A DNA stretch of 64,000 nucleotides. Origin: an uncultured Candidatus Saccharibacteria bacterium (GTDB taxonomy: Bacteria > Patescibacteriota > Minisyncoccia > UBA6257 > WO2-44-18). Each line of letters begins with the position of its first letter. The first letter of the stretch is position 1. The DNA lies in assembly GCA_964348885.1 (NCBI GenBank), contig CAYGEK010000001.1, positions 10,255 through 74,254 of the forward strand. Direction: 5' to 3'. The notes beneath the pieces are model-generated. The model made no database searches and had not been told where the DNA came from. It was given only the letters and a program-made list of their open reading frames with translations. Both the position numbers and the translations under genes were made by a program. This document shows positions 1 to 25,954 of the stretch, in pieces.

Positions 1-511
1 CTGGCAGCCCAAGCTCGTGTAGAGGTAAATAATTAAAATGATAGTGGCACCCAGCCGATATGATGTAATCCAGCATGTCCTTATATTTTGGCTTCTTAAA
101 CCAGTTACTCAAGAGATAAATATACTCAACCTCAACATTAAGCGACGCCACTAATTTTTGATACTGCTTCTTTTTGAAGTCACAGGTCTGTAGCTTTTCG
201 TCAACTGACCCTTCTGTCTTCTGAAACTTCATTTCTATAATAAAAAGGGTGTTATTTACAATTACATACAAGGCTTCATCTGGAACTAGCCTCTTAGATA
301 AGTGGCTCTCCCAGTCAATCCCCTTACTTTTAAGGTAACGATAAAGATCGTATTTCTTATAGCTTTGCGCCACCTCTTTCTTCATGTAAAAAATTACGTT
401 TCCCTTAACTGAATAGCCTGGCGTCTTTTTGAGTAAAGAAATGACATCCTTTGCTTTTTCGAATTTTAATCCTGTGAGCGTGTTGGCTCCGCCAAACCCT
501 TTATTTATCAT
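1..511 (-). CDS. Type II restriction endonuclease, PD-(D/E)XK fold, 3' part runs off window edge
   Basis: Manual translation of the minus strand from ATG at 511..509 gives MINKGFGGANTLTGLKFEKAKD...VPDEALYVIVNNTLFIIEMKFQK... with a PD-x13-E-M-K catalytic signature. It sits 17 nt downstream of the MTase in the same orientation. Not in the ORF track because it is truncated by the window edge. Confidence 0.55.
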   Translation of the reverse strand, partial: MINKGFGGANTLTGLKFEKAKDVISLLKKTPGYSVKGNVIFYMKKEVAQSYKKYDLYRYLKSKGIDWESHLSKRLVPDEALYVIVNNTLFIIEMKFQKTEGSVDEKLQTCDFKKKQYQKLVASLNVEVEYIYLLSNWFKKPKYKDMLDYIISAGCHYHFNYLPLHELGLP

Positions 512-527
512 AATTGGTCTTTAATTA

Positions 528-1352
528 TTAATTGTTAAGACTTTTTTGCAAATTCTCAAATCGCCGGATTGAGAGATCTAGGGATATTTTATCGCTATCA
601 ATGCCAATAAACCTTCTTCCATTTACATAAGCTGCTATCCCGGTCGTAGAACTGCCAGTGAATGGATCTAGTACGAGGTCGCCTTTATTAGTGCTTGCCA
701 AAACAATTCTATTCAATAAAGCGAGTGGCTTTTGAGTTGGATGTTTGCCGACGGTTTTCTCTGAAGGTTTCGGCGTGCCGATAGACCACACGGAGCGCAT
801 TTGCTTGCCTGGCTTTTTAAAAACATCTTCTGGCCATTCACCCAATTTCATAAGTTTATAATTAAAAATATGCTTAGCTTTTTCTTCCTTTCTCGCCCAA
901 ATTAATGTCTCGTGGCTTGCAGTAAAGTACCGGCCACTCAAATTAGGCGAAGCGTTTGGCTTAAACCAAGCAACGTCATTTAAAATTTTATAGCCTGCTA
1001 ATTGCAACGAATATCCACACTGATAAATGGAATGATAGGTGCCACTTATCCAAATTGTGGCGCTAGATTTAAGCGCCTCTCGACAGGCTTTAATCCAATT
1101 TTGATGAAAATTAAAATCATTAAATAGACCCTTGCTCTTATCCCAGTCCCCTTTATTAACGCTCACTCTTTTGCCAGCATGCAAAGAGAAGCCATTATTT
1201 GATAAGAGGTAAGGAGGATCGGCAAAAATCATATCTACGGAGTTCTTTGGAAAATCTTTCAGAAATTCAAAACAGTCTGCGAGGTAAAGCTTGAATGCAC
1301 CGTCCTGGCTTTCGTAGTAAGGCTTCATTTGGGCGTTCAATGGATCGATCAA
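528..1352 (-). CDS. DNA methyltransferase (beta-class N6-adenine/N4-cytosine MTase; motif IV DPPY precedes motif I FTGSSTTG)
   Basis: 274-aa ORF containing DPPY and FxGSGTT-like FTGSSTTG motifs in beta-class order. Typical M-R operon arrangement with the downstream REase. Confidence 0.9.
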   Translation of the reverse strand: MIDPLNAQMKPYYESQDGAFKLYLADCFEFLKDFPKNSVDMIFADPPYLLSNNGFSLHAGKRVSVNKGDWDKSKGLFNDFNFHQNWIKACREALKSSATIWISGTYHSIYQCGYSLQLAGYKILNDVAWFKPNASPNLSGRYFTASHETLIWARKEEKAKHIFNYKLMKLGEWPEDVFKKPGKQMRSVWSIGTPKPSEKTVGKHPTQKPLALLNRIVLASTNKGDLVLDPFTGSSTTGIAAYVNGRRFIGIDSDKISLDLSIRRFENLQKSLNN

Positions 1353-1423
1353 TTATTGATCAGATATGAATACCGATCAATAAGAACGATTCCATCCACC
1401 ACCGTAAGTACCGTCGCCCAGTA

Positions 1424-2611
1424 TTATTCCCCTTCGTAGACTTTTTTGAGCTCAGCCAGATCAAATTTTTTCATCTTGAGAAACGCCTGGGTAACACGGC
1501 CGATCTGATCAGGCGTGCCTTTGGCCATCATCTCATCCATAGCATCCGGCACGATCTGCCAGGAGACGCCGTATTTATCCTTCAGCCAGCCGCACTGCCC
1601 TGCCTGCCGCGTCCGGCCGGCCTTCCATTCACGCTTGAGCCACTTTCGGCCAAACCCAGTTTTCAATTTTTGCTCTCGATCAACCGCGGCTTGTCGAGTT
1701 GGAAACTCTTCATAATGTATAACTTGGGTCGGCTTAAAATTTTTCGTATACTCTGCCCCAGCGCCAGACTCATGCTCTCGCCAACGCTTTTTAATGTCTT
1801 GGGTTTGGCCGATGTACATAGAGCCGTCACCACAAAGAAGCACATAAACATAAAAAGTGTCCGGCCGCGGCGCAGGCAGGTCCGATTCCGGAACCGCGGA
1901 AAGCTTTTCCCAGTAGTAATCAATCTCCTGCTGGTCTTTGCAGTGGACCATCAGCGAAACTCCTTCGTTGAACGCGAATGCGTGCGGCTGGGCGCTTTCC
2001 ATGGCCGCAAACCACTGATTTCCAAGCATGAAGTCGGCGAACATGACATTCCCTTCCTTATCCGGCTCCATCCCTTTCGGATAGCGGGCAGTGGTGCCAC
2101 GTTTTGAATTTTTAAAAACTGATACCCAAAAATCAATCGCTTCGTCCGCCTTCCCGACCCCGGCCTTGGTAAATAAAAGCGACGGGACGATCATCGGGCG
2201 AGGCTCGCCTTTCGGATTGGTCAGAATAAGTTGCCAGGAAACGCCGTATTTATCCTGAATCCAGCCGTACCACTCGCTGAAAGGATACTTCTGAAGCGGC
2301 ATCAACGCCTGCCCTCCCGGGGAAAGCTTGGTCCACAGCTCATCAAGATGCGCTTTGGCATCCTTATCTTGTGACGGATCAAAATTCACGAAGAAAGAAA
2401 TGGACGGATTAATTTTGAAATACGGGCCCGCGCTGATCAGGGTGAAGTCGTGATCCTCAATCGTCATGTCCACCACATCCACCGAGCCTGACGGCGTATT
2501 ATTAAGGACGTATTTACCGTTTATCTTCGCGTTCCGGAATGCCGACACATAAAACTCCGCCGCCTCCCCCGCCTGCGTATCAAACCATAAATGAGTGGTG
2601 ATCTTATTCAT
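1424..2611 (-). CDS. Tandem PhnB-like / 3-demethylubiquinone-9 3-methyltransferase-like (VOC fold) protein with an in-frame GIY-YIG nuclease domain inserted in the second repeat
   Basis: Two repeats end in ...WYGWIQDKYGVSWQLIL and ...CGWLKDKYGVSWQIVP. Between YYWEKLSAVPES and QCGW lies a roughly 96-aa insert FYVYVLLCGDGSMYIGQTQDIKKRWREHESGAGA...KLKTGFGRKWLKREW matching the GIY-YIG (UPF0213/YhbQ-like) pattern. Start moved to MNKITTH (ATG 2611) because the upstream part overlaps the neighbouring gene. Confidence 0.75.
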   Translation of the reverse strand: MNKITTHLWFDTQAGEAAEFYVSAFRNAKINGKYVLNNTPSGSVDVVDMTIEDHDFTLISAGPYFKINPSISFFVNFDPSQDKDAKAHLDELWTKLSPGGQALMPLQKYPFSEWYGWIQDKYGVSWQLILTNPKGEPRPMIVPSLLFTKAGVGKADEAIDFWVSVFKNSKRGTTARYPKGMEPDKEGNVMFADFMLGNQWFAAMESAQPHAFAFNEGVSLMVHCKDQQEIDYYWEKLSAVPESDLPAPRPDTFYVYVLLCGDGSMYIGQTQDIKKRWREHESGAGAEYTKNFKPTQVIHYEEFPTRQAAVDREQKLKTGFGRKWLKREWKAGRTRQAGQCGWLKDKYGVSWQIVPDAMDEMMAKGTPDQIGRVTQAFLKMKKFDLAELKKVYEGE

Positions 2612-2627
2612 ATATTTAAATTGTAGC

Positions 2628-4415
2628 CTAAAACCCGATTGCTGAAGCTTTTTGGAGAAGCTGTATACGGGCGCGGGTGATTGGGCCGAAATATCCGGCG
2701 ACGGGCGCGATACTCTGCGACGCCTGGAAGCGCGATAAAGCGGCCTTGGTGAGCGGGCCAAAGTACCCGGTTATTAATGCTTCCGGATAATGCCCCTCGT
2801 CAATCAGAAATTCCTGAAGGTTTTTTACATCATCTCCCCTCAAGCCGCGATATAGATCTCGCGCAAAAGCGACCTCGGCCCGATTAGAGGCTTCCGGCGT
2901 GGCATCAAAAATAACCTGATCGTCTCCGGATTTTGGAGTTGCGGTCATTCTGACAATTTGAGAAAAACGGCCATAGTCATCATAAGCAAAGATGCCGTAG
3001 TGATACTTGGTACCGTTCGCCAAATTAGTATCAGTAAAGGATTTACCGTTACCGTCAAAAACCACCTCGCCGTCATTTATATTCATGGTCGCGGAGCCGA
3101 GCTTGCGGATGATCCTCACCTGAATACCGGGCTTGTCGCTAAAATCTCTCAGCCAGAAAAAGGCCACCTGCGAGTCCAACGCTTCGGTTTTGAAAATAAG
3201 AGGACGGGTCGGCGACGTCGGTAAAGTAGAGGGAGCGCCCGAAACGACAACCGGTAGCTGTTTTATTACAATCGGCTTGGGAACCGGAGCCGGGGCGGGC
3301 GCCGGAATTGGAGCTGAAGCCGAGGCGGTGGTGGTAAATTGATAATTTTTGGATACGGCGGTGCTACCCGATCCGTCACGCGCGGAGACCCGGAAATTAT
3401 ACAAACGTCCGGCGGAAAGTCCGCTAAGAGTGGCAGAGTGATCCTTACGCGAGGTATCGTCACGCCAGACAGTGCCGTAAGCGGTGGTCAAGCCATATTC
3501 TATTTTGGATTTTACGGCGATATTGGTGGTCCAGACGATAACCGCTCCGGACTCGGTGACCGATTGAACTTTGACACCGGAGATAACCGGCAAAACTTCT
3601 TCAGGCGCCGGTTCGGGTTCCGGGGTGGGTTCGGCGGGTGTTGGTTCAGGTTCAGGCTTTGGCTCAGGCTGGGATGCCGGCTCCGGCTCTAGAGTGGAAA
3701 AGTTTTTTTGCAAAGTGGTCGTCATGTTGCCGGCCTCGTCCTCGGCGATAATGCGGTAGTAATAGGTCGTATCCGAATTCAGACCGGAGACAAGGAAGGA
3801 TTGCGAGTCGGAATATTCCGAACTGACGGGAGTGGTAAAGCCGTAAGCGGAGGTTGGTCCGTATTCGATATAGGATTGCACCAATTCATCGGCGGAAAAA
3901 CTTATGGTAGCCGCGGAAAGAGTGATATCAGAAACAGTAATCTCGGAAATAGCGGGCGGATCCTCATCGGCCAGGACTGGCTCGGAGGCAGTCGTAGCCG
4001 TGTAATCCGGAGAATAGCCGGCGTTACCCGCTTCATCCGTCACAATGATGCGGAAGTGAAGCGTGGTATTCGGGGTCAGACCGGAAATAGTTTTGGTGTG
4101 ACTGGTAGCGAGCGCGGCATCGGAATCCGTAACTGATCCGTACTGGGTGGTTGGGCCATACTCAATCCGACCGCGCGAAGGTTCGTCGGTCGTCCACATA
4201 ATCGTTACGCTGGTCGGCTCCGCCGACACTACCGCCCAGGACACAATCATAGGCGAAGTCGTGTCCGATTCCTGAACAGGGTCCGCGGTCATTTCTTCCG
4301 GAGGCGTGGCGACTCCTCCGTCTACCGGAACCTGAGCCAGTACAAGTGATGCGCCGAATAAAGCCCCAAGGACTGCCAGAATGGCTGCCGAGCGGATCAT
4401 ATTAAGATTTGTCAT
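2628..4415 (-). CDS. Secreted/anchored protein with three fibronectin-III-like repeats, a Pro/Glu-rich linker (PEPEPKPEPEPTPAEPTPEPEPAPEE) and a C-terminal peptidoglycan-binding (PG_binding_1-like) domain
   Basis: N-terminal hydrophobic segment MTNLNMIRSAAILAVLGALFGASLVLAQ. Repeated ~90-aa Thr/Ser-rich beta-rich modules (IEYGPT...YRII/FRVS). C-terminal YFGPLTKAALSRFQ...GYFGPITRARIQ repeats. Start chosen at the first Met preceding the signal-like segment. Confidence 0.7.
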   Translation of the reverse strand: MTNLNMIRSAAILAVLGALFGASLVLAQVPVDGGVATPPEEMTADPVQESDTTSPMIVSWAVVSAEPTSVTIMWTTDEPSRGRIEYGPTTQYGSVTDSDAALATSHTKTISGLTPNTTLHFRIIVTDEAGNAGYSPDYTATTASEPVLADEDPPAISEITVSDITLSAATISFSADELVQSYIEYGPTSAYGFTTPVSSEYSDSQSFLVSGLNSDTTYYYRIIAEDEAGNMTTTLQKNFSTLEPEPASQPEPKPEPEPTPAEPTPEPEPAPEEVLPVISGVKVQSVTESGAVIVWTTNIAVKSKIEYGLTTAYGTVWRDDTSRKDHSATLSGLSAGRLYNFRVSARDGSGSTAVSKNYQFTTTASASAPIPAPAPAPVPKPIVIKQLPVVVSGAPSTLPTSPTRPLIFKTEALDSQVAFFWLRDFSDKPGIQVRIIRKLGSATMNINDGEVVFDGNGKSFTDTNLANGTKYHYGIFAYDDYGRFSQIVRMTATPKSGDDQVIFDATPEASNRAEVAFARDLYRGLRGDDVKNLQEFLIDEGHYPEALITGYFGPLTKAALSRFQASQSIAPVAGYFGPITRARIQLLQKASAIGF

Positions 4416-4668
4416 CCTCAGATTTCTCAACTGAGAAAAGAACCAGACTGATGATGATAGTGATCGCGAGCGCGTAGACGACCTTAGCGATGATCGTACT
4501 CGCGTTATCGGGTAAAAAGTGATCGATGACGGCTTTAATTGCATCATTCCAGGCCAAACCTGCTACCAAGCCTAGGCCGGCGGCAAGATACCCGAAAATC
4601 CGTTTTTTGAGCGATTTACCAACCTTTCGCGCAGCCTCTACCTTCTCGTTATCGGGATTAGTAAACAT
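4402..4668 (-). CDS. Small membrane protein (hypothetical)
   Basis: ORF with one or two predicted TM segments (IFGYLAAGLGLVAGLAW; VVYALAITIIISLVLF). Overlaps the downstream gene by 14 nt. Start chosen at an internal Met to avoid an N-terminal low-complexity extension. Confidence 0.45.
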   Translation of the reverse strand: MFTNPDNEKVEAARKVGKSLKKRIFGYLAAGLGLVAGLAWNDAIKAVIDHFLPDNASTIIAKVVYALAITIIISLVLFSVEKSEDDKS

Positions 4669-4728: not shown

Positions 4729-5265
4729 CTATTTCAGCAACTCGGCAAACTCTTTTTTTACCTTTTCCAACTTCGGATTGATCACCACTTCGCAGTAGGG
4801 ATTGCCGGGATTTTTGGCGAAATAATCTTTGTGATACTCCTCCGCTTCCCAAAACTTATCCAGCGGTTGAACTTCCGTCACAATCGGCGCGCCTGCCTTG
4901 CTTGAGGCGTTCAATGCCGAGATAAAATCCCCCGCTTCTTTCTGCTGCTCCGGCGTGGTGTAAAAAATCACCGAGCGATACTGCGAGCCCACATCGGCAC
5001 CCTGACGATTTTTGGTGGTCGGGTCGTGCGAGCCGAAGAAGATTGTGAGCAGTGTTCGATATTCCACAAACGCCGGGTCGTATTCAACACGCACTACTTC
5101 CGCGTGGCCCGTGCCGCCGCCACAAACCTCTTCATAGGTTGGATTTGGCTTTGTGCCGCCCGCATAACCCGGTAATACCGAACTGATGCCTTTGAGCATT
5201 CTAAAAACCGCCTCCGTGCACCAGAAGCATCCCCCGCCGAATACTGCTACTTCATTCTTAATCAT
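4729..5265 (-). CDS. msrA: Peptide methionine sulfoxide reductase MsrA
   Basis: 178 aa; GGGCFWC active-site motif and overall MsrA pattern (FWEAEEYHKDYF). Confidence 0.92.
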   Translation of the reverse strand: MIKNEVAVFGGGCFWCTEAVFRMLKGISSVLPGYAGGTKPNPTYEEVCGGGTGHAEVVRVEYDPAFVEYRTLLTIFFGSHDPTTKNRQGADVGSQYRSVIFYTTPEQQKEAGDFISALNASSKAGAPIVTEVQPLDKFWEAEEYHKDYFAKNPGNPYCEVVINPKLEKVKKEFAELLK

Positions 5266-5314
5266 AAAAATAGTTTAGCAGATTCTTACCCCTAACCGTC
5301 CCCACTCTTATGCC

Positions 5315-5366
5315 GTTAGGTTCTTTATTCCAATATTCTCAAGAATATTGGAATAAAGAACCTAAC
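5315..5366. promoter_or_regulatory. Perfect 52-bp palindrome (25-nt arms, 2-nt centre) in the divergent msrA/ArsR intergenic region; probable operator
   Basis: gttaggttctttattccaatattct-ca-agaatattggaataaagaacctaac; every arm position was checked for complementarity. A half-site copy gagaatattggaata recurs at 5647..5663 inside the 3' end of the regulator gene. Confidence 0.6.
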
Positions 5367-5385
5367 TCATGATATAATTGCGGAC

Positions 5386-5664
5386 ATGCTAAAAGATAAA
5401 AATTATCACTACGCAGAACGAATAGTTCGAGGCTTTTCCAATCACCGACGTATAGAAATACTAGATATCCTTAGTCACTTTCCGGAACTTTCGGTTGCTC
5501 AGATAGCCGAAAGGACAAAAACAAATTTCAAGACTGCCTCCGAACATATTCGTCGTTTAGCCATTGCCGGTCTCGTAATGAAAAGATCTGACGGAGTAAG
5601 TGTACGCCACAAACTAACTCCTCGCGGAGAATCTATTCTCAAATTCTTGAGAATATTGGAATAG
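5386..5664 (+). CDS. ArsR/SmtB-family winged-helix transcriptional regulator
   Basis: 92 aa; helix-turn-helix segment LSVAQIAERTKTNFKTASEHIRRLAIAGLV typical of the ArsR family. Divergent from msrA with the palindromic operator between them. Confidence 0.7.
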   Translation: MLKDKNYHYAERIVRGFSNHRRIEILDILSHFPELSVAQIAERTKTNFKTASEHIRRLAIAGLVMKRSDGVSVRHKLTPRGESILKFLRILE

Positions 5665-5689
5665 ACTGAAATGCGCTAGACTAATGATA

Positions 5690-5869
5690 TGAACCTCGGC
5701 TTACCGAAAGAAAATCTTTTTGGACCGATGCTAAGAAATCTCGGCGTGCAGGCGCGGGAATTCGGCGCGCTGATTATTGAATACCGGTATCACATCGGTA
5801 TCGGCCTAGCTATTCTGCTCGTAATTCTTTTTATCGCCTACCGAAGAAGCCACTCCAGTTATTGAGCCG
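5690..5869 (+). CDS. Possible 59-aa small membrane protein (below ORF-track cutoff)
   Basis: Manual translation MNLGLPKENLFGPMLRNLGVQAREFGALIIEYRYHIGIGLAILLVILFIAYRRSHSSY; one TM segment. No strong RBS identified; overlaps the 3' end of the convergent dehydrogenase gene by about 10 nt. Confidence 0.25.
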
Positions 5870-6998
5870 GAACTTTCGTGTGCACCCGATAGATCGCGCC
5901 CGCGTGGTCGTCGGTCACAAACATCTCTCCGCCCGGACGTACCAGGATGTCCACCGGCCGGCCGAGGATCTTGCCGTCATTCATAAACCCGGTCATAAAA
6001 TCCTCCGTGCCGAGGTAGTTTCCCTTAGCGTCAATTTTTAACCGCACTATCTTATAGCCAACCGGCACAGAGCTGTTCCAGGAGCCGTGCTGAGCGACCA
6101 ACAGATTATGCCAATATTCTTCCGGCCAGCCTTCTTCCGGAATAAAAGCCAATCCGAGCGGGGCGGAATGCGCCTGCAAATCTATAAAGGAAGGAGTTTC
6201 AAACGGCGCCATGCAGGGGTTCCGGAAATAAGTATTCTTATCAAATTCGGTGTCATGAATATTTTTACCGAAGCAGGTCGGCCAGCCGTAGTTCTTGCCA
6301 CGCTCAATGATGTTCACTTCGTCCGGCGGCAGATCGTCACCCAGCCAGTCCCGGCCCATCTCGGTGGCGAACATTCTGCCTTGCACATAATCCCAGGCGA
6401 AAAACACGGAGTTACGCAGACCGCGCGCTACCTCCTGAAAATCACTGCCGTCTTTCTTCATAGAAAAGATCTTGGCGCGCATCGGATCCTCTTCGTGGCA
6501 GACGTCACAGGATGAGCCGATGGACACGTAAAGCCGGTCATCCGGACCGAAGCCGATGGTGCGGGTAAAATGCCGTCCGCCGTCCGGTAATTTTGCCACC
6601 GTCTCCATCTCGCCCTCGGAATAAAGCGGCACGCGGGAGATCTTATCGGATTCCGCCACGTAAAGCATGGTGGCCATCTGCGGATCCAGCGCCAATCCGT
6701 GCGGCTTATTCAGATTCTTAAAAATATCTATCTTGTTGGCCACTCTGCCGTTTTCCATCTCCAACATCGTCACCACGCCCTTGCTGGTGCGGCTGACCAG
6801 AAAATTACCCAGTCCGTCCTGCGCCATTACGCGCGCGCCCGGCAGGCCGTCCGCGAAAAGCTCTACTTCAAAAAAATCTGGCGCGGTCAGTCGCGCGACC
6901 GGCGAGTTCGTACCCATGTCCGGGCCGGGCCAAAAAGCGACAAAAGCTATCACCGACACGGTCACCGCCGCGATTATCAGATTGGAGATTAATTTCAT
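5859..6998 (-). CDS. PQQ-dependent sugar dehydrogenase-like (soluble aldose sugar dehydrogenase / sorbosone dehydrogenase family) with N-terminal membrane anchor
   Basis: 379 aa; beta-propeller SGDH-family features (KPHGLALDP, GPDDRLYVSIGS, NYGWP). N-terminal hydrophobic helix. Confidence 0.75.
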   Translation of the reverse strand: MKLISNLIIAAVTVSVIAFVAFWPGPDMGTNSPVARLTAPDFFEVELFADGLPGARVMAQDGLGNFLVSRTSKGVVTMLEMENGRVANKIDIFKNLNKPHGLALDPQMATMLYVAESDKISRVPLYSEGEMETVAKLPDGGRHFTRTIGFGPDDRLYVSIGSSCDVCHEEDPMRAKIFSMKKDGSDFQEVARGLRNSVFFAWDYVQGRMFATEMGRDWLGDDLPPDEVNIIERGKNYGWPTCFGKNIHDTEFDKNTYFRNPCMAPFETPSFIDLQAHSAPLGLAFIPEEGWPEEYWHNLLVAQHGSWNSSVPVGYKIVRLKIDAKGNYLGTEDFMTGFMNDGKILGRPVDILVRPGGEMFVTDDHAGAIYRVHTKVPAQ

Positions 6999-7046
6999 AG
7001 TTTAATATTAACATGTGAAGCGCGGTTGTTCTGCTATAATAGAAAG

Positions 7047-7463
7047 ATGATCACAATAAATTTCTTGGCGGTCGCGGTTGCCGCCCTGGGCTCCATCGTA
7101 TTGGGCTCACTCTGGTACGGACCACTGTTCGGTAAAAAATGGATCAGTCTGATGGGTTGGAACTCCATGACCCCGGAGCAGATGGCGGAGGGAAAGAAAA
7201 CAATGATGCGGAGCTATATCGGGACCTTCATCAGCTCCTTCGTGATGGCTTATGTGATGAGTTACGTGGTCGCCGCCTTCGGTTCAATGGACGCGGTTGC
7301 CGGGGCTTTCAGCGGTTTCTGGATCTGGCTGGGCTTCGTCGGCACAATCTCTCTGGGCAACGTACTCTGGGACGGAAAGCCGATGGGCTTGTGGCTCCTG
7401 AATAACGGCTACAATCTGCTTAATCTTTGCTATATGGGGGCTTTACTGGCGGTCTGGCGCTAA
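7047..7463 (+). CDS. DUF1761-like integral membrane protein
   Basis: Four predicted TM helices; LWYGPLFGKKW motif characteristic of the DUF1761 family. Start moved to MITINF. Confidence 0.55.
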   Translation: MITINFLAVAVAALGSIVLGSLWYGPLFGKKWISLMGWNSMTPEQMAEGKKTMMRSYIGTFISSFVMAYVMSYVVAAFGSMDAVAGAFSGFWIWLGFVGTISLGNVLWDGKPMGLWLLNNGYNLLNLCYMGALLAVWR

Positions 7464-7477
7464 GAGACCGAGAACTA

Positions 7478-7510
7478 ACCAAAAAGAGCCTAAAAAGGCT
7501 CTTTTTGGTT
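7478..7510. terminator. Bidirectional rho-independent terminator
   Basis: aaccaaaaagagcc-taaaaa-ggctctttttggtt perfect hairpin with flanking A/T runs. Confidence 0.75.
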
Positions 7511-7579
7511 AACCTGATTAAGGCCGCTGGTCCCTATTGACCCCCGCCCACTAGGATTATTTTGGTCAGTGGGTGGGTG

Positions 7580-7608
7580 TTGACAAATAGGAGGTAATAT
7601 GATATATT
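7580..7608 (+). promoter_or_regulatory. Near-consensus sigma-70 promoter (TTGACA-N17-TATATT with TGn extension) preceded by a hairpin at 7543..7577
   Basis: ttgaca aataggaggtaatatga tatatt. Drives the GC3-rich ORF at 7652. Confidence 0.5.
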
Positions 7609-7651
7609 TTCACTCTGTACTTTTAGGTTGGTTTTTTTGAAAGGGGCTTGT

Positions 7652-7963
7652 ATGGTCGCCTTCCTCATGGTGGAAATCAGCTGGTTCCGCAACGGGATCA
7701 AGGAGGGGTTCTCTCTGCTGGTCGGGGACTTCCCCTACAAGACGGGAGCGGCGGTCTGGATCACCAGCCTGGAGCAGGGCTTCCAGCAGCTGAACGAGCG
7801 GCTCGGGCTCACCGACTCGGAGGAGCGCATCCGGTTCAAGGTGGATCCGCTCAAGGACCTCCTGGAAGCGCACGTGCTCCTCGCGCCGAAGAAGATCGGC
7901 ACCGTGGAGCTCGTGAAGGAGGCGGAGAAGCGCTTCGCCGTCACCGCGGGCGTGCTCATGTAG
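7652..7963 (+). CDS. Hypothetical 103-aa protein encoded by a codon-usage-aberrant, very GC3-rich gene (likely foreign origin)
   Basis: RBS AAGGGG 5 nt upstream of the ATG. Third codon positions are about 95% G/C versus about 65% at first positions, which identifies this frame as coding among the overlapping high-GC ORFs. Local GC is about 64% against about 50% around it. Own promoter and own terminator; no family recognised from the sequence. Confidence 0.55.
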   Translation: MVAFLMVEISWFRNGIKEGFSLLVGDFPYKTGAAVWITSLEQGFQQLNERLGLTDSEERIRFKVDPLKDLLEAHVLLAPKKIGTVELVKEAEKRFAVTAGVLM

Positions 7964-7968
7964 CGACA

Positions 7969-8004
7969 CTCCCCTTCAGTCTAACGACTGGAGGGGAGTT
8001 TTTA
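7969..8004 (+). terminator. Rho-independent terminator after the GC-rich ORF
   Basis: ctcccct-tcagtctaacgact-gaggggag followed by ttttta. Confidence 0.7.
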
Positions 8005-8027
8005 TTTACACATGGTAGGATGTATTC

Positions 8028-8420
8028 ATGACCGATTCGAAAGATCAGTACTGGCAAAAAGAGATGGACCCCGAACTGAAACGGGTGGCGAAAGATAAAG
8101 GCACCGAAGCGCCGTACACCGGAAAATATCTAAAAGAGCACGCCGATGGAACTTATCGCTGCGCCGTCTGCGGCAATCCTATCTTTGACGCCAAAGCCAA
8201 ATTTGAATCCGGCACGGGCTGGCCCAGCTTCTATGAGCCGGTCTCTAAAGACGCGGTCACCTATCACGAAGACAGAGAAATGGGCATGAGCCGCGTGGAA
8301 GTGAAATGCGGCAAATGCGACGCTCACCTCGGCCACGTCTTTGATGACGCCGTGGATCAGCCGACCGGAAAAAGATACTGTATCAACTCCGTCTGCCTGG
8401 ATCTGGAGAAGAAAAAATAA
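8028..8420 (+). CDS. msrB: Peptide methionine sulfoxide reductase MsrB
   Basis: 130 aa; two CxxC pairs (CAVCGNPIF; CGKCDAHLGHVF) and a GWPSF motif. Followed by terminator hairpin 8418..8442. Confidence 0.92.
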   Translation: MTDSKDQYWQKEMDPELKRVAKDKGTEAPYTGKYLKEHADGTYRCAVCGNPIFDAKAKFESGTGWPSFYEPVSKDAVTYHEDREMGMSRVEVKCGKCDAHLGHVFDDAVDQPTGKRYCINSVCLDLEKKK

Positions 8421-8440: not shown

Positions 8441-8968
8441 TTACTTGTCTTCTTGTTCATCCTTCTTGTCTTCAGTGCCGGGCTCCAATCCGTCGCCGGA
8501 AGATTCGGGGAAAAATGTACGGATATGCTGCACGCCCTTCTTGGCAAACTCCTCATCATTTTTTGTGAAATAGAAAGGAACATTACCGGGATTCAGCCAG
8601 TCAATTACGCCCGGAACCGATCGCCTATGCATAGCGATAATGTCGTAATGCCGATCGGGCTTAGCGGTTACCAGTAAGGAAAAAACAAACGGATAGTCCA
8701 GCGGCAGGATTTTATTCAAGTAGGAAACGGCGATCATCTGGACGCGGCAGGACAAGGTATTGTCCATATCGCGCATCTTCCGGCCGAGCTTCCTTTCTAC
8801 AATAAATTTCGCGAGCAGGACGACAATAATATTTCCGGCAACTTCGCCGAATTTCTTAATACCGGCCCGCCGCAGATCATCCAGCTGAACACTGAGGAGA
8901 GCGACGGCCTCCGGCAGGAGGCGGGCCTCGAAATAATCAGAGTGGGCAATCCGCTCAAACTTATGCAT
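8441..8968 (-). CDS. Hypothetical protein, paralog A (acidic C-terminal tail)
   Basis: 175 aa starting MH.... Shares a core Y-L-x8-D-x-P-[FY]-[VI]-x-S-L-[LV]...HRR/RRN...GV with the adjacent gene. No recognised domain. Confidence 0.55.
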   Translation of the reverse strand: MHKFERIAHSDYFEARLLPEAVALLSVQLDDLRRAGIKKFGEVAGNIIVVLLAKFIVERKLGRKMRDMDNTLSCRVQMIAVSYLNKILPLDYPFVFSLLVTAKPDRHYDIIAMHRRSVPGVIDWLNPGNVPFYFTKNDEEFAKKGVQHIRTFFPESSGDGLEPGTEDKKDEQEDK

Positions 8969-9043
8969 CCGACACCTCTTGATATGTTCTGGATTCAGTA
9001 TAACAAAAAACCGGCCCGATACATCGGGCCGGCAGTTAATCAG

Positions 9044-9511
9044 CTAATTCTCGTCGTCCTCGTCGTTGATAATGGTAATCTCGAACTTCCCGTTGACCAC
9101 CTCGTCAACATTGTTGACGACGATCAGAGGGATAATGTTCCGGGAAATCAGTTCGTGAAACACCCCGCCGTGGTTGCGGCGAACGAGCGGGAAATACTTC
9201 CACTCCTGCTCATTCTCCACCCAGACCAGCGACACGATGTACGGGTGGTCTTCATCCAGAATCCCATTCACGAAGGCGACCAGATAACCCCGGATACTCA
9301 TCACCACTTCGTCACTCAGCTGATCCAGAGTCACACCGAGAACATTGGCCACTTCGCTGAACAGCTGGTCCAGAGCGGCCGTCATGAACTCGGCGAACTC
9401 GTCCACATCGCCCTCCGCGAGCGCCGGGACCTTCTCCCGGATGTCCCGTCGGTACAATGGGGCAACCCGCTCCTTGATGACCTCCAGGACCGCATGCGCG
9501 TTGGCGTGCAT
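9044..9511 (-). CDS. Hypothetical protein, paralog B (acidic C-terminal tail; GC3 elevated at about 75%)
   Basis: 155 aa starting MH.... Similar to 8441..8968 in its second half (YLVAFVNGILDEDHPYIVSLVWV...RRNHGGVFHELIS versus YLNKILPLDYPFVFSLLVT...HRRSVPGVIDWLN). Terminator hairpin ccggcccgat-aca-tcgggccgg lies 3' at 9011..9035. Confidence 0.55.
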   Translation of the reverse strand: MHANAHAVLEVIKERVAPLYRRDIREKVPALAEGDVDEFAEFMTAALDQLFSEVANVLGVTLDQLSDEVVMSIRGYLVAFVNGILDEDHPYIVSLVWVENEQEWKYFPLVRRNHGGVFHELISRNIIPLIVVNNVDEVVNGKFEITIINDEDDEN

Positions 9512-9627
9512 AAATCCTCCTTACAACAAAGCTCCAAACTATTATTAAAAATATCTAGAGAGTATTCTACCATAAATACCAATAAAAAACAAGTCGGCGG
9601 GCAGAAAAAATATGATAGAATGGACAA

Positions 9628-19138: not shown

Positions 19139-20245
19139 TTACTTCTTTTCTTCCCTGGTCGCCGAGCCGTAACCGGCCGACTCCTTATATCGCTTATCGG
19201 CAGTCTCGCCGCCAATCGCCCGATCCAGCTCCTGCCAGATCTTGGCGCCGCTCATCGCCTGCGCGTCGCCAACCGGATGATTCCGTTGACGATCGTGCAG
19301 ATTCCAAAGGGCCGCCGCGCCGACACGGGCCATTTCGTCAAAACCGTTCCAGACCGCCTCCATCGCGATGCGCGACTGCAAGGTCGTGTGCCAGATCAGT
19401 CTGAAGCCATTCCCCTTATCGTAAAGATCGTCATAGGTCGGCGGCTCTTTCTTGAACTTGGCCCGATAAGCCACCGTCCAATCCTTATTCGGAGAATAGT
19501 TGATACCAAGAATCATTTTCGGATCGTGACGGCGCATTTCCGAAACCCAGCGCTCGATCACGGCCGGATCCTGCATCGCGTCCGCCCAAAGCACCAGCGG
19601 ACGCAGGCCGTGATACTCAACATCCATGTAGCGCTTGCCGCGCTCAATGGCGTTTTCCAATCCCCCGTTCGCCGCCGTCAAAGCATCGGTGCGAACCATC
19701 AGCCGCATGGAAGTCCCGAGGGCTTCCGAAGCCATCAGCCAGCAACGAATCTTCGCTTCCATATCCTCGATGTCCACGCAGGACTTGCCGCCCAGATTGC
19801 CGCACCGGCGGGTCGCCTGATCCTCCAGATGAGCCAGGCCGACACCCATCTCATGATAGGCCCGGACCGTCTCACTGATCACGACCGGCTCAAGCGCAAA
19901 CCCCGTCTCGGCATCCACGATAGTCGGAAGCGGAAAAGCTTCGGCTACCGCGTGTCGCGCGAGCATGGTCATGCGCGTCAGATCATGGAAAGCCATGTCC
20001 GGTCGCCGCCAGGCCATCGCGCTGATGGACCAGCCGCCGATATAAACGGCGTTAAAGGCGCAGGGATTCTGGCTGTTAGCCGTCCGCTGGCGGTAGATTT
20101 CTTTGGCGATATAAGCGCCCATAGCGTCATAAACGCCCGGCGCGATAATCAAACCCTCGTCATTCAGCGTCTTGACGAACGCGTCACCCGGACGCTCATG
20201 CCGCCGAAAAATCTCCCGCATACCCGATTCGTTCTCCGGATTCAT
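19139..20245 (-). CDS. aceA: Isocitrate lyase family protein (ICL/PEP-mutase superfamily); signature reads RRCGN instead of KKCGH
   Basis: Aligns with ICL over AVYIGGW, IVDAETGF, HLEDQ...RRCGNLGGKS, VRTDAL. Own -10/RBS upstream. GC3 is roughly 65%, above background. Confidence 0.75.
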   Translation of the reverse strand: MNPENESGMREIFRRHERPGDAFVKTLNDEGLIIAPGVYDAMGAYIAKEIYRQRTANSQNPCAFNAVYIGGWSISAMAWRRPDMAFHDLTRMTMLARHAVAEAFPLPTIVDAETGFALEPVVISETVRAYHEMGVGLAHLEDQATRRCGNLGGKSCVDIEDMEAKIRCWLMASEALGTSMRLMVRTDALTAANGGLENAIERGKRYMDVEYHGLRPLVLWADAMQDPAVIERWVSEMRRHDPKMILGINYSPNKDWTVAYRAKFKKEPPTYDDLYDKGNGFRLIWHTTLQSRIAMEAVWNGFDEMARVGAAALWNLHDRQRNHPVGDAQAMSGAKIWQELDRAIGGETADKRYKESAGYGSATREEKK

Positions 20246-20341
20246 AAAAATCTCCCTAAAAGTTCTGACGCAATTATACGAATTCCCCGACGAAAAATCA
20301 AATAAAAAAACTACCCATGTTCGGGTAGTTTATTAATCGAT

Positions 20342-21970
20342 TTACTCCGCGTTTTCCGTTTCCTGGAGCAGAAGCTCCGAGTAGCCGGGAATGGTCAGAA
20401 ATTCCTCAAATTCTTCGGCGGTGATCATCTGCATGAACAACTCTTCCGCGTCTTCGTAATAGTCATCCAGAGCGGGGTCGTTGAAAGCCGCTTCTCTGAC
20501 GCGAGTCAGGTGTTTCGTAATCAGATCCAAGGTCACGGTGAAGCCATCGGCGGTCACCGCGCCATGTTTCAGCCACTGCCACAGCTGGGAGCGCGAAATC
20601 TCGGCGGTCGCCGCATCCTCCATCAGATTCTGCAGCGCCACGGCTCCGGTTCCCCGAAGCCAGTGCCACAGATAACGGATGCCGACCTCCAAATTCTTAC
20701 GGATTCCTTCCTGTGTGATCGTTCCCTGAATCGGCGCCAGCAGTGCCTCGGCTTTCGGAAAATCATCCGAGCGCGCATCCTCAATCTGATTCTTGCTCTT
20801 CATCCCGAGGTCAAAGATCTCTTTGGCCATCGGTACGAAGGCGGGATGCGCGACCCAGGTGCCGTCATGACCGGCTTTCACTTCCCTGGCCTTATCGGCT
20901 TTGAATTTCAGCTGGGCCTCGGTATTGGCCCGGATACTCTCCTTGTCGGTTCCTTTGATTGGAAGCTGAGCGGCCATTCCGCCCATCGCATGAGCGCCAT
21001 GCTTGTGACAGGTGCTGATCAGCAACTTCACATACTCGGCAAGGAACCCTTTGTCCATCGTCAGCTGTCCGCGATCCGGCAGGACAAAACGTTCATCATG
21101 CCGCAGCCGCTTGATGTAGCTGAAAATATAATCCCAGCGCCCGCAATTCAAGCCGGCGGAATATTCCCTCAGCTCGTACAAGATCTCTGACATCTGAAAA
21201 GCGGCAGGCAGAGTCTCGATCAAAGCCGTGGCCTTGATTTCTCCGGGTAGAAGGCCGAGCTTGTCGGAAGCGTACTTGAAGACTTCAGTCCAAAGACGCG
21301 CTTCTTCTCGGCTTTCCATCTTGGGCAAATAGAAATACGGACCATCTCTGCGCTTACGAAGCTCCATCGCGTTGTGAAAAATGTAGAGGCCGAAGTCGAA
21401 CAGACTGGCCGAAACGGCTTCACCGCTCACCGCCAGATGATTTTCCTCCAGATGCCAGCCGCGGGGCCGGAAAAAGAGGACGGCCGTCTGCGCGTTCAGG
21501 GCGTAGGTCTTCTTTTTTTCCTCGTCGGTATAAAGCAGATCCTTACGAATCGCCTGATAAAGATTGATCTGGCCGCTGACGATGTTTCTCCAGGTCGGAG
21601 ATTCGGAATCTTCGGCATCGGCCATGAAGACATTGGCACCTGAATTCATCGCGTTGATGACCATCTTCGCGCTGCTCGCCGGACCAGTGATCTCCACGCG
21701 CCGATCCAGAAGATGATCCGGCACCGGCCAGATCTTCCAGTTGCTACTGCGAATCTCTTTTGCGTCGGGCAGAAAGTCCGGCAGAATGCCGGCGCGGATT
21801 TTCTGCTGAGCGAGTTTTCGCGCCTCCAACACCTCCATGCGCTTCCGATTGAAGCGGCTATGAAGATCGGCGACAAAGCTGACAGCTTCGGGAGTCAGAA
21901 TGACATCCGCCGCCTCATCCAGGCCGTGCTCATTGAGCAGTTTCCGACCGAGCAGATGGATATACTGCAT
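20342..21970 (-). CDS. aceB: Malate synthase A
   Basis: 542 aa; overall match to the malate synthase A family; GGAGG RBS; terminator hairpin immediately 3'. Confidence 0.9.
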   Translation of the reverse strand: MQYIHLLGRKLLNEHGLDEAADVILTPEAVSFVADLHSRFNRKRMEVLEARKLAQQKIRAGILPDFLPDAKEIRSSNWKIWPVPDHLLDRRVEITGPASSAKMVINAMNSGANVFMADAEDSESPTWRNIVSGQINLYQAIRKDLLYTDEEKKKTYALNAQTAVLFFRPRGWHLEENHLAVSGEAVSASLFDFGLYIFHNAMELRKRRDGPYFYLPKMESREEARLWTEVFKYASDKLGLLPGEIKATALIETLPAAFQMSEILYELREYSAGLNCGRWDYIFSYIKRLRHDERFVLPDRGQLTMDKGFLAEYVKLLISTCHKHGAHAMGGMAAQLPIKGTDKESIRANTEAQLKFKADKAREVKAGHDGTWVAHPAFVPMAKEIFDLGMKSKNQIEDARSDDFPKAEALLAPIQGTITQEGIRKNLEVGIRYLWHWLRGTGAVALQNLMEDAATAEISRSQLWQWLKHGAVTADGFTVTLDLITKHLTRVREAAFNDPALDDYYEDAEELFMQMITAEEFEEFLTIPGYSELLLQETENAE

Positions 21971-25325: not shown

Positions 25326-25550
25326 CTAGCGGGCTGTTTGCTTTTTCTTCACATCTAGGCGAAGTAGGCTTCGGAGGCCGATGCCGATTGCCGCCAATAC
25401 TCCCAGAAAGAAGAGCCGAAAGAAAAAGGAGCCGGTCATTAAAATATCAAAGACGGCGCGAACCGTCCCGAAAGGGTTCTTCAGCACTACTGCCGATAAA
25501 CTGACTAATAGCAGTACGGCACATACCGAACCGGTAATCAGGTTTTCCAT
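25326..25550 (-). CDS. Small membrane protein (hypothetical)
   Basis: 74 aa, two TM helices, GAGG RBS, terminator at the 3' end. Confidence 0.4.
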   Translation of the reverse strand: MENLITGSVCAVLLLVSLSAVVLKNPFGTVRAVFDILMTGSFFFRLFFLGVLAAIGIGLRSLLRLDVKKKQTAR

Positions 25551-25684
25551 ACTGCCCTCTTAAAGTACTCCGCAAATCTACTCCCGGGGAATTTTTATTG
25601 CAAGAGCTTTTCAGCTGTATATTATTGACAGCATAAAGTTTTTTATATTAAAATACCGCTGGTACTTTTAGAGGTGGGGGCTGA

Positions 25685-25954
25685 ATGAACGCTTCAAGCC
25701 AGAAGTGGACCTGGCGATGTGGCGGATGCGGAGCGGAGCATGTAGAATTTGTCGGCACGGCGCCGGATTCCTGCTCCAAGTGCAAGCGTACGATAGTGGA
25801 TCTTGGCCAGCTGATTGAGATGGCGCAGGACACCGGTTTGGTGGTGCCGGCGCCACTGGAAACGCGCGGAATGCGTTTTAAGCGATGTCCCAACTGTGGC
25901 GGTAACTGCCTCCGAGAGGAACACAGTTGCTCCGACTGCGGCGCGGCGCTCTAA
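25685..25954 (+). CDS. Zinc-ribbon protein (four CxxC pairs), hypothetical
   Basis: 89 aa; CGGCG...CSKC...CPNCG...CSDCG; strong RBS GGTGGGGG; terminator after the stop. Confidence 0.55.
   Translation: MNASSQKWTWRCGGCGAEHVEFVGTAPDSCSKCKRTIVDLGQLIEMAQDTGLVVPAPLETRGMRFKRCPNCGGNCLREEHSCSDCGAAL

What the first reader, a model, noticed from the sequence alone, without database searches (positions are those of the whole stretch)
7536..8010. Self-contained, extremely GC3-rich mini-gene cassette inserted between native terminators
A 103-codon ORF (7652..7963) has about 95% G/C at third codon positions and about 64% GC overall, in a locus and genome segment of about 50% GC. It carries its own near-consensus promoter (TTGACA-N17-TATATT with TGn, 7580..7608), a hairpin just upstream (7543..7577), an AAGGGG RBS and its own rho-independent terminator (7969..8004). 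It sits directly after the strong bidirectional terminator of the preceding gene (7478..7510). Codon usage this divergent implies very recent acquisition from a high-GC donor, an assembly chimera or contaminant, or an engineered insert. The encoded protein (MVAFLMVEISWFRNGIKEGFSLLVGDFPYKTGAAVWITSLEQGF...) matches no family I can recognise by eye. The minus-strand gene 9044..9511 nearby also shows elevated GC3, so the block from about 7.5 to 9.5 kb may be a small mosaic island.
Basis: seen in the sequence. Interest (0 to 1): 0.75.

Follow-up and report, generated by a model that had tools for sequence, protein, structure and literature searches.

The report
GC3-saturated orphan gene in Saccharibacteria
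A real 103-codon gene of unknown function, with almost every codon ending in G or C, sits in a variable spot of a 50%-GC Saccharibacteria chromosome; it is most likely a laterally acquired orphan gene, and it is not an assembly error or an engineered insert.

Summary
ORF 7652..7963 has GC1/2/3 of 0.63/0.34/0.95. Sixty other genes in the window average GC3 0.60±0.06 (z=6.3; P=3e-17 under host codon usage). The promoter, both flanking hairpins and the terminator are real.

It is not a chimera. Six assemblies from three samples and two assemblers show identical junctions. It is protein-coding: an exhaustive search found one homolog (103 aa, 36% identity), and conservation is strongest in this frame.

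The host is a Candidatus Saccharibacteria bacterium. Two relatives have msrA next to msrB. Here a 2.7-kb compositional mosaic lies between them: MarR GC3 0.32, GSDH 0.68, DUF1761 0.72, ORF103 0.95.

Three facts complicate a simple high-GC-donor story. The terminator is native, being homologous to the hairpin before msrB in a relative. The promoter and leader carry a motif shared with three other genes in the window. The protein's amino-acid composition resembles the host's.

The only homolog also has GC3 0.93 and the same promoter layout. It lies in a genome with GC3 about 0.8 and lysine-rich proteins.

Best reading: recent lateral acquisition from a GC3-rich, probably related donor. The rival reading is that GC3 is actively maintained. 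Function is unknown. The proposed 7.5-9.5 kb island is not supported.

The parts
5258..7998 (.). Variable block between msrA (4729..5257, -) and msrB. It holds an ArsR/MarR-type regulator, a GSDH-like dehydrogenase, a DUF1761 membrane protein and ORF103.
   Evidence: BLASTN synteny with L007 and L008 stops at 5257 and resumes at 7999. L007 has only 578 bp here, carrying a different ORF (ORF maps). GC3 values are 0.32 / 0.675 / 0.724 / 0.95.
7476..7511 (.). Bidirectional intrinsic terminator of the DUF1761 gene. It forms the upstream border of the cassette.
   Evidence: Perfect 16-bp inverted repeat with a 4-nt loop (I6). Fold energy is -24.2 kcal/mol, z = -7.9.
7532..7541 (+). CCCTATTGAC, an apparent remnant of the ancestral -35 region.
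   Evidence: The same 10-mer forms the -35 region of the homolog's promoter in L045. Deleting 7542..7584 restores CCCTATTGACAA, which is identical to L045. This is read from the sequence and is an inference.
7543..7577 (.). GC-rich hairpin directly upstream of the -35. It may be a 38-nt palindromic insertion (7542..7579) flanked by a TTGAC duplication.
   Evidence: It is a unique inverted repeat with 0 expected by chance. The fold has z = -3.8. Strain variants L004 and L006 carry T7574C, which makes the stem perfect.
7580..7608 (+). Sigma-70-type promoter, TTGACA-N17-TGaTATATT.
   Evidence: It matches 11 of 12 consensus positions and has an extended -10. L045 has the same layout, TTGACA-N17-TGgTATATT.
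7617..7626 (+). Leader / start-site motif GTACTTTTAG.
   Evidence: GWACTTTWAG has 4 matches in the window against 0.39 expected. All four lie 6-8 nt after a -10-like hexamer and upstream of an SD plus ATG. L045 has GTACTTTGAC at the same place.
7640..7646 (+). Shine-Dalgarno AAAGGGG, 5 nt before the ATG.
   Evidence: Read from the sequence. L045 has AAGGGAG 6 nt before its ATG.
7652..7963 (+). ORF103, a 103-aa orphan protein with GC3 0.95.
   Evidence: Composition is given. One homolog, P0006, was found (E = 1.9e-12, same length). The sense frame has the highest BLOSUM z-score, 13.7. Identity by codon position runs pos2 0.63 > pos1 0.56 > pos3 0.54, and pos3 is close to its chance level of 0.44.
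7968..8008 (+). Intrinsic terminator (14-bp stem plus TTTTTATTT), 4 nt after the stop codon. It is a native element shared with L007.
   Evidence: It aligns with L007 2735-2785, with changes in both arms that preserve pairing. BLASTN homology to L007 resumes at 7999.
8028..8420 (+). msrB (SelR domain), the native downstream neighbour. Its ATG lies only 28 nt after the terminator stem.
   Evidence: Pfam SelR, E = 3.8e-48. It is 84% identical to the L007 protein. The stretch CATGGTARGATRTA before the ATG is conserved.

Best explanation
ORF103 is a genuine, independently transcribed protein-coding gene from a very rare family with two known members. It lies in a Candidatus Saccharibacteria chromosome, in a recombination-prone slot between msrA and msrB that holds different cargo in related genomes.

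Its near-saturated GC3 is most likely the still-unameliorated codon signature of a recent lateral arrival. The probable donor is a GC3-rich organism that shares the same promoter and leader conventions. That points to another Saccharibacteria/CPR-like lineage, resembling the one that carries the only homolog, and not to a classical high-GC actinobacterium.

Shown:
- A near-consensus extended -10 promoter, a 43-nt leader with SD, the 103-codon ORF, and a strong hairpin terminator 4 nt after the stop.

Inferred:
- Promoter and CDS arrived together and landed between two resident terminators.
- The gene is strongly and constitutively transcribed.
- Because msrB starts 28 nt after the terminator, some msrB transcription may come from read-through of this unit.

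The protein is a small soluble alpha/beta protein whose biochemical function is unknown.
For: Real and extreme:
- GC3 is 0.952 against 0.597±0.057 for other genes (z = 6.3, P = 3e-17).
- The ribosomal protein genes S16, L10, L7/L12 and L11 in the same window have GC3 0.56-0.62. High GC3 is therefore not this genome's high-expression signature.

Not an artefact:
- Six assemblies show identical junctions.

Coding:
- One homolog of identical length was found among 1.84e9 cluster representatives.
- The best BLOSUM z-score is in this frame, and conservation runs pos2 > pos1 >> pos3.
- Both copies have an SD plus ATG.

Lineage-specific insertion:
- L007 (msrB protein 84% identical) and L008 (80%) lack it, and msrA and msrB are adjacent there.
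- The block is a compositional mosaic, with GC3 from 0.32 to 0.95.

Donor type:
- The homolog's contig L045 has neighbours with GC3 0.79-0.85 and GC2 0.29-0.35, that is, lysine-rich proteins with GC-ending codons. This matches the combination seen in ORF103.
- L045 shares TTGACA-N17-TGnTATATT, CCCTATTGACAA and GTACTTT with the window cassette.
- L045 also shares TTCCGCCCTA with another window promoter, at 27737(-).

Recency:
- With a host equilibrium GC3 of 0.60, a present value of 0.95 allows at most about 0.13 relaxation units since arrival, even from a donor at GC3 = 1.0 (simple exponential model; inference).
Against: - The GC enrichment starts and stops exactly at the CDS. The promoter and leader are in the host's own style and the terminator is native. 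The imported piece would have to be small and precisely placed, or else come from a close relative.
- No donor is identified. The family has only two members in about 15 billion proteins. None was found in JGI metagenomes, IMG/VR, phage or plasmid collections.
- The homolog is itself more GC3-rich (0.93) than its two neighbours (binomial p = 7e-4, but n = 2 genes).
- Synonymous sites between the two copies are saturated within the G/C-ending codon set. High GC3 may therefore be a maintained family trait and not a transient donor signature.
- L045 is only 1151 bp long and its taxonomy could not be established.
Confidence: 0.55

Rival explanations
1. High GC3 is an actively maintained property of this gene family. 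It would be kept by selection on the mRNA or DNA (for example stability, structure, or avoidance of A/U-rich cleavage or termination signals), or by GC-biased gene conversion at a recombination hot spot. On this reading it is not a leftover donor signature, and the gene may have been resident for a long time.
For: - Both known members have GC3 of at least 0.93, although their synonymous sites are saturated relative to each other. About 50% of identical residues at four-fold sites use different G/C-ending codons, and pos3 identity is 0.54 against 0.44 expected.
- Both members exceed their neighbours in GC3: z = 6.3 here, and p = 7e-4 in L045.
- P0001's amino-acid composition equals the host proteome's (K 7.8 vs 7.5%, R 4.9 vs 5.7%) while its third positions do not. 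That is the opposite of the order expected under neutral amelioration.
- The promoter, leader and terminator are host-style or native.
- Neighbouring genes in the same block, and the 155-aa gene, have the highest GC3 in the window at 0.72-0.78. This is compatible with locally elevated recombination and gBGC.
Against: - The gene is absent from the two closest available relatives at this locus.
- No mechanism is shown. The whole-mRNA folding z-score is only -2.6 including the terminator, and the leader's is -1.0.
- Ribosomal protein genes show no GC3 preference.
- The family sample is n = 2, and the L045 comparison rests on only two neighbouring genes.
- A GC3-rich, lysine-rich donor genome such as L045's explains the amino-acid pattern equally well.
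Confidence: 0.27
2. The cassette is an assembly chimera, a contaminant or an engineered (codon-optimised) insert.
For: The CDS-limited GC3 saturation, together with a consensus promoter, SD and strong terminator, superficially resembles a synthetic expression cassette.
Against: - Junctions are identical in six assemblies from three runs, made by two different assembly pipelines. Strain-level SNPs lie around the ORF but none within it.
- A naturally diverged homolog with the same architecture exists in an unrelated run.
- The terminator is homologous to a relative's native hairpin.
- The leader motif is shared with three native genes.
Confidence: 0.02
3. The region is not translated in this frame. 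On this reading the real product is an antisense ORF (7610..7969, -) or a structured non-coding RNA.
For: Long ORFs are open in other frames, at 7610..7969 (-) and 7648..8031 (+). The antisense frames also show some conservation with L045, with BLOSUM z-scores of 9.1-9.3.
Against: - The strong 3-base periodicity, with GC 0.63/0.34/0.95, fits the + frame.
- The sense frame has the highest conservation score (z = 13.7), and pos3 is the saturated position.
- Both homologs have an SD plus ATG and are exactly 103 codons long.
- Open antisense frames follow automatically when A and T are nearly absent at sense third positions.
- No Rfam family reaches its threshold.
Confidence: 0.03

Closest known systems
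Phage 'morons' (independent transcription units added to phage genomes; Cumby et al. 2012, PMC3594210)
   Same: It is a single small gene with its own promoter and a terminator. It is an obvious addition relative to related genomes, and its GC content differs from that of the surrounding genes (for the definition; for the features here).
   Different: It is not in a phage or prophage. Its neighbours are msrA, msrB, nfo and other chromosomal genes. Neither the gene nor its neighbours hit PHROGs, and there is no tblastn hit in 50,697 phage records. The terminator is a resident element and was not imported.
Compositionally atypical, laterally acquired ORFan genes / small genomic islets (amelioration framework of Lawrence and Ochman, cited from my own knowledge)
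   Same: Its codon usage is far from the host's. It is absent from close relatives at a conserved locus, it lies in a mosaic block of genes with differing composition, and it has almost no homologs.
   Different: Only the third codon positions are atypical. GC2, the amino-acid composition, the promoter, the leader and the terminator all look native. No integrase, transposase, tRNA or flanking direct repeats are present, apart from a 5-bp TTGAC duplication around a hairpin.
Integron gene cassettes
   Same: It is a small single-ORF unit followed by an imperfect palindrome and inserted in an array-like variable spot.
   Different: It has its own strong promoter, whereas integron cassettes are normally promoterless. 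The palindromes are T-tailed intrinsic terminators, and by inspection they lack the RYYYAAC/GTTRRRY core sites. No intI gene is nearby.

Membership tests
Phage moron | Own promoter and terminator flanking a single gene | tested here: met
   The promoter matches 11 of 12 consensus positions and has an extended -10. The terminator has a 14-bp stem plus a T-run. The terminator is, however, shared with relative L007.
Phage moron | GC content differs from surrounding genes | tested here: met
   The CDS is 64% GC with GC3 0.95. The genome is 50% GC with GC3 0.60.
Phage moron | Located within a phage or prophage genome | tested here: not met
   The flanking genes are msrA, a MarR-type regulator, GSDH, DUF1761, msrB and nfo. 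There are no PHROGs hits, no tblastn hit in phage records, and no relatives in IMG/VR.
Laterally acquired genomic islet | Absent from close relatives at an otherwise syntenic locus | tested here: met
   L007 and L008 keep msrA, msrB and the downstream genes but lack 5258..7998.
Laterally acquired genomic islet | Atypical composition or codon usage | tested here: met
   z = 6.3 for GC3 and P = 3e-17. The block as a whole is a mosaic, with GC3 from 0.32 to 0.95.
Laterally acquired genomic islet | Identifiable donor, or mobility machinery (integrase, transposase, tRNA target, flanking repeats) | tested here: not met
   No donor was found. No tRNA lies nearby; the tRNAs are at 25.0, 28.4 and 33.7 kb. 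There are no flanking direct repeats beyond TTGAC, and no mobility genes in the gene tables.
Integron gene cassette | Promoterless ORF followed by an attC site with RYYYAAC...GTTRRRY cores, near an intI/attI platform | tested here: not met
   A strong promoter of its own is present. By inspection, the hairpins are T-tailed terminators without the core sites. No integrase appears in the gene tables.
Any curated protein family (Pfam, NCBIfam, PHROGs, PADLOC, PDB sequences) | Significant profile match | tested here: not met
Protein-coding gene (as against ncRNA or a spurious ORF) | Frame-specific conservation, 3-base periodicity, translation signals | tested here: met
   An SD plus ATG is present in both homologs. 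Actual translation cannot be tested with these tools.

The most novel reading that the evidence does not exclude
ORF103 and its single homolog would define a tiny gene family whose coding sequence is held at 93% G/C or more at third codon positions, whatever the composition of the host genome. The coding sequence would be coupled to a conserved AT-rich consensus promoter. On this reading the codon bias is itself a selected or conversion-driven trait of the cassette. Possible reasons are mRNA survival, escape from an A/U-directed nuclease, or frequent recombination with gBGC. It would not be a fading mark of its donor.
Probability: 0.22. Interest if true: 0.6.

Novelty: new member of a known kind. 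Interest (0 to 1): 0.4.

Why it matters
If the ordinary reading holds, this is a clean and well-bounded example of very recent gene gain in a reduced epibiont (CPR) genome, at a reusable insertion slot next to oxidative-damage repair genes. That makes it useful as a marker of gene flow among Saccharibacteria, but it is not surprising.

The unusual part is the combination of near-saturated GC3 with a host-like amino-acid composition, a host-style promoter and leader, and a native terminator. In addition, the only homolog shows the same codon extreme despite saturated synonymous divergence.

If GC3 is actively maintained, this would be a compact natural test case for selection or biased conversion acting on synonymous sites of a single gene. 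It could be tested directly by recoding the ORF.

Tried and rejected
Homolog searches:
- The word-indexed search found only the query itself.
- Exhaustive phmmer found one homolog.
- A profile search with the two-sequence alignment added nothing.
- Peptide-pattern scans of JGI metagenomes and IMG/VR found none.
- A degenerate DNA pattern, MVE..WFR..LNERL, found none in either collection.
- tblastn against the phage and plasmid collections found none.

Family and structure:
- Pfam, NCBIfam, PHROGs and PADLOC gave no hits.
- PDB sequences gave nothing significant.
- AlphaFold2 on the single sequence gave an all-helical model with pLDDT 58. With the two-sequence alignment it gave a different beta-beta-alpha-beta-alpha-alpha model with pLDDT 67.
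- The afdb50 library was unavailable.

RNA explanations:
- Rfam gave nothing at gathering thresholds or at E-value thresholds.
- mRNA and leader folding were unremarkable.

Taxonomy of the homolog's contig:
- Its neighbouring gene is itself an orphan.
- The other neighbour is only a weak Cas4-like C-terminus.

Sample origin:
- The run accessions were not found in the paper library.

Other attempts:
- A scan of IMG/VR with promoter plus GTACTTT gave 5 unrelated phage promoters, roughly what I estimated for chance.
- Translational selection as the cause of high GC3 is rejected, because ribosomal protein genes have average GC3.
- NG86 dN/dS came out near 1 (0.62/0.64). I judged it uninformative, because synonymous change is confined to G<->C under this codon bias. 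I used the per-position and BLOSUM frame tests instead.

Full report
**1. The observation**

The ORF at 7652..7963 (+) is present as described. It has 103 sense codons plus TAG. Its GC is 64.1% and its GC by codon position is 0.635/0.337/0.952. Only five codons end in A or T.

I compared it with 60 non-overlapping long ORFs of the same window. Their GC3 has mean 0.597, sd 0.057 and maximum 0.724, which puts ORF103 at z = 6.3. If the same protein were encoded with the host's synonymous usage, the expected GC3 would be 0.60. The probability of at least 98 of 103 G/C endings is then 3.3e-17. A frame-wise sliding scan finds nothing else above 0.88 in 64 kb.

The enrichment is confined to the CDS. 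The promoter and leader are 32% GC, the CDS is 64%, and the 3' spacer is 45%.

The expression signals are all real:
- The promoter is TTGACA-N17-TGaTATATT at 7580..7608, matching 11 of 12 consensus positions.
- The upstream hairpin lies at 7543..7577.
- The SD lies at 7640-7646.
- The terminator lies at 7968..7999 and is followed by a T-run.
- The perfect 16-bp bidirectional terminator of the preceding gene lies at 7476..7511.

**2. Not an artefact**

The exact protein is encoded on contigs from three sequencing runs. Each run was assembled by two pipelines, giving Logan ERR3094294/5/6 and ENA ERZ27247820/28/30. All show the same gene order and the same junctions, and are 98.7-99.9% identical to the window. 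Strain SNPs occur in the flanks and none occur in the ORF. This rules out a chimera or contaminant as far as assemblies can. Read-level mapping could not be done.

**3. A real protein-coding gene**

The word-indexed search found only the query. An exhaustive phmmer search of 1.84 billion cluster representatives found exactly one other protein, P0006. It is also 103 aa, 36% identical, with E = 1.9e-12.

On the codon alignment, nucleotide identity is 0.56 at position 1, 0.63 at position 2 and 0.54 at position 3. The values expected from composition are 0.28, 0.26 and 0.44. The BLOSUM62 score of the annotated frame stands 13.7 sd above shuffles, against 9.3 or less for the other five frames.

Both genes have an SD plus ATG at the aligned start. 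The long antisense ORFs follow automatically from the lack of A and T at sense third positions.

No Pfam, NCBIfam, PHROGs, PADLOC or PDB-sequence match exists. Structure prediction is of low confidence, and its topology changed between runs. Fold searches gave only weak, generic alpha/beta matches. The biochemical function is therefore unknown.

**4. Host and locus**

The window is core chromosome. It carries ribosomal proteins, gyrB, dnaE, pheT, mur genes and an RNR. The closest msrB loci among GTDB species representatives are a Candidatus Saccharibacteria MAG (L007, 84% protein identity) and a second MAG titled only 'bacterium' (L008, 80%).

In both, msrA (-) is followed almost directly by msrB (+). 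After that come the same two fast-evolving paralogous orphan genes, then nfo.

BLASTN synteny with the window ends at 5257 and resumes at 7999. So 5258..7998 is extra. It holds an ArsR/MarR-type regulator, a GSDH-like dehydrogenase, DUF1761 and ORF103. L007 carries a different small gene in a 578-bp gap at the same place.

The block is a compositional mosaic, with GC3 of 0.32, 0.675, 0.724 and 0.95. The genes at 8441..9511 are native and syntenic, although 9044..9511 does have GC3 0.78.

**5. What is native and what is foreign in the cassette**

The terminator after ORF103 aligns with the hairpin that precedes msrB in L007. Changes occur in both arms and keep the pairing. The msrB leader CATGGTARGATRTA is conserved. 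The terminator is therefore a resident element.

The leader carries GTACTTTTAG 8 nt after the -10. The degenerate motif GWACTTTWAG occurs four times in the window against 0.39 expected, and 0 of 100 shuffles reach four. Each occurrence lies 6-8 nt after a -10-like hexamer and just before an SD plus ATG. The other three genes are an 89-aa zinc-ribbon gene, a 74-aa gene and the isocitrate-lyase-like gene. So the expression signals follow the genome's own conventions.

The amino-acid composition of the protein also matches the host proteome: K 7.8 vs 7.5% and R 4.9 vs 5.7%. Ribosomal protein genes in the window have ordinary GC3 of 0.56-0.62, so the bias is not a high-expression signature. Only the synonymous positions are foreign.

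**6. The homolog**

P0006 lies on a 1151-bp Logan contig, L045, from SRR11567534. The gene is preceded by a terminator and by TTGACA-N17-TGgTATATT. GTACTTTGAC follows 6 nt after the -10, and an AAGGGAG SD is present.

The sequence just upstream of its -35, CCCTATTGACAA, reappears in the window if the 43 nt at 7542..7584 are removed. Those 43 nt are the hairpin plus one TTGAC copy. The hairpin therefore looks like a small palindromic insertion with a 5-bp duplication that regenerated the -35. This is read and is an inference.

L045 also shares TTCCGCCCTA with the window promoter at 27737(-). These shared conventions suggest that L045 comes from a related lineage. I could not verify this, because its neighbouring gene is itself an orphan.

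P0006 has GC3 0.93. Its two neighbours have GC3 0.79-0.85 and GC2 0.29-0.35, meaning lysine-rich proteins with GC-ending codons.

Between the two family members, 11 of the 33 identical residues at degenerate codons use different codons. About half of the four-fold sites differ, always G against C. Synonymous sites are therefore saturated within the G/C-ending set.

**7. Interpretation**

The most economical account is recent lateral gain. The gene is species-restricted and sits in a slot that collects genes of various compositions.

A donor resembling L045's organism would explain three features together:
- the GC-ending codons;
- the lysine-rich, low-GC2 protein;
- the shared promoter style.

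With a host equilibrium GC3 of 0.60, a value of 0.95 leaves room for very little amelioration: kt <= 0.13 even from a donor at GC3 = 1.0. By contrast, the native orthologs shared with L007 are only 71-77% identical at the DNA level.

A classical high-GC donor such as an actinobacterial host is unlikely. GC2 and the K/R content do not fit one, and such well-sampled groups yield no homolog.

The rival account is that high GC3 is maintained, by selection or by biased gene conversion. It is kept alive by four facts:
- both family members are GC3 outliers in their own contexts;
- they stay so despite saturated synonymous divergence;
- the enrichment is limited exactly to the CDS;
- the protein composition looks equilibrated while the third positions do not.

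With n = 2 and no population data, I cannot separate the two accounts. I give them about 0.55 and 0.27.

Two mechanistic details are inferred and not shown. First, the stop codon lies 4 nt before the terminator stem, and 7 nt before it in L007. A terminating ribosome would therefore overlap the 5' arm. Second, msrB begins 28 nt after the stem with no clear promoter of its own. Part of msrB expression may therefore depend on read-through from this strong promoter.

**8. Comparison with known systems**

In anatomy the unit matches the definition of a phage moron: its own promoter and terminator, deviant GC, and an addition relative to related genomes (PMC3594210). It fails the defining context, because there is no prophage.

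It is not an integron cassette. It has its own promoter, it lacks attC cores, and no integrase is nearby.

It is best filed as a compositionally atypical, laterally acquired ORFan in a chromosomal variable slot. That makes it a new member of a known kind, with an unusual codon-only signature.

**9. Verdict**

Artefact and engineered-insert explanations are rejected, and the island boundaries are corrected. The mechanism is probably ordinary lateral transfer, and the function is unknown. Interest is moderate (0.4). The one feature that could raise it is the possibility that GC3 saturation is a maintained trait of the family.

Noticed in passing
window 7617-7626(+), 25662-25671(+), 25559-25568(-), 20256-20265(-): The leader motif GWACTTTWAG has 4 matches against 0.39 expected. 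Each lies 6-8 nt after a -10-like hexamer and just before an SD plus ATG. The genes are ORF103, an 89-aa double zinc-ribbon gene (25685..25954), a 74-aa gene (25326..25550, -) and the isocitrate-lyase-like gene (19139..20245, -). It may be a start-site or translation-enhancer convention, or a shared operator.
   Followed up: partly
window 7532-7585: CCCTATTGAC, a 38-nt GC-rich palindrome, then TTGACA. Removing 7542..7584 recreates CCCTATTGACAA, which is identical to the homolog's promoter in L045. This looks like a miniature palindromic insertion with a 5-bp TTGAC target duplication that regenerated the -35. The strain variant T7574C makes the stem perfect.
   Followed up: partly
window 5315-5366, 5634-5663, 6102-6121: A 25-bp-arm perfect palindrome (…TATTCCAATATTCT/AGAATATTGGAATA…) lies between msrA and the ArsR/MarR-type gene. 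An 83-90% copy lies at that gene's 3' end, and a partial third copy lies inside the GSDH gene. L007 has the same palindrome next to its msrA (L007 1624-1659). It may be a regulator operator or a small repeat element.
   Followed up: no
window 5386-5664: The ArsR/MarR-type regulator gene has GC3 0.32, the lowest of any gene examined in the window. The msrA-msrB block therefore holds both the lowest and the highest GC3 genes.
   Followed up: partly
window 5776-5821 and 9482-9536: There are tight clusters of differences between the window and several of the other assemblies. One has 8 SNPs in 46 nt. The other has 5 SNPs in 22 nt plus a 1-nt indel, at the 5' end of the 155-aa gene, which is also its most GC3-rich part (0.88). 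These look like short recombination tracts.
   Followed up: no
window 8441-8968(-) and 9044-9511(-); L007 3221-4262; L008 6905-7441 and 8383-8829: Two adjacent orphan genes appear to be fast-evolving paralogs that share an LP(L/E)(D/N)(H/Y)P(F/Y) motif. They are conserved in position across Saccharibacteria relatives (28% and 42% identity to L007) and match no Pfam family.
   Followed up: partly
window 7999-8030; L007 2769-2798: msrB starts 28 nt after the terminator stem. The conserved stretch CATGGTARGATRTA could be an SD, or an extended -10 (TGgTAGGAT) giving a nearly leaderless mRNA. In L008, msrB instead follows a 72-aa ORF by a few nucleotides.
   Followed up: no
window 7673-7675; L045 831-833: Both family members keep the rare A-ending codon GAA at the aligned Glu of the conserved N-terminal FLMVE motif (ATGGTGGAA). 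This hints at a nucleotide-level constraint near the 5' end of the CDS.
   Followed up: no
window 19139-21970(-): Malate synthase and an isocitrate-lyase/PEP-mutase-like gene lie side by side, which suggests a glyoxylate-shunt pair. They sit next to a class II ribonucleotide reductase. I believe this is unusual for a reduced Saccharibacteria genome, but I did not check it.
   Followed up: no
L001 1-7000 (upstream of the window start and window 1-4650): A defence-like cluster lies just upstream of msrA. It includes an AIPR abortive-infection protein, an N6/N4 DNA methyltransferase, a GIY-YIG protein and an S24 peptidase/LexA-like gene.
   Followed up: no
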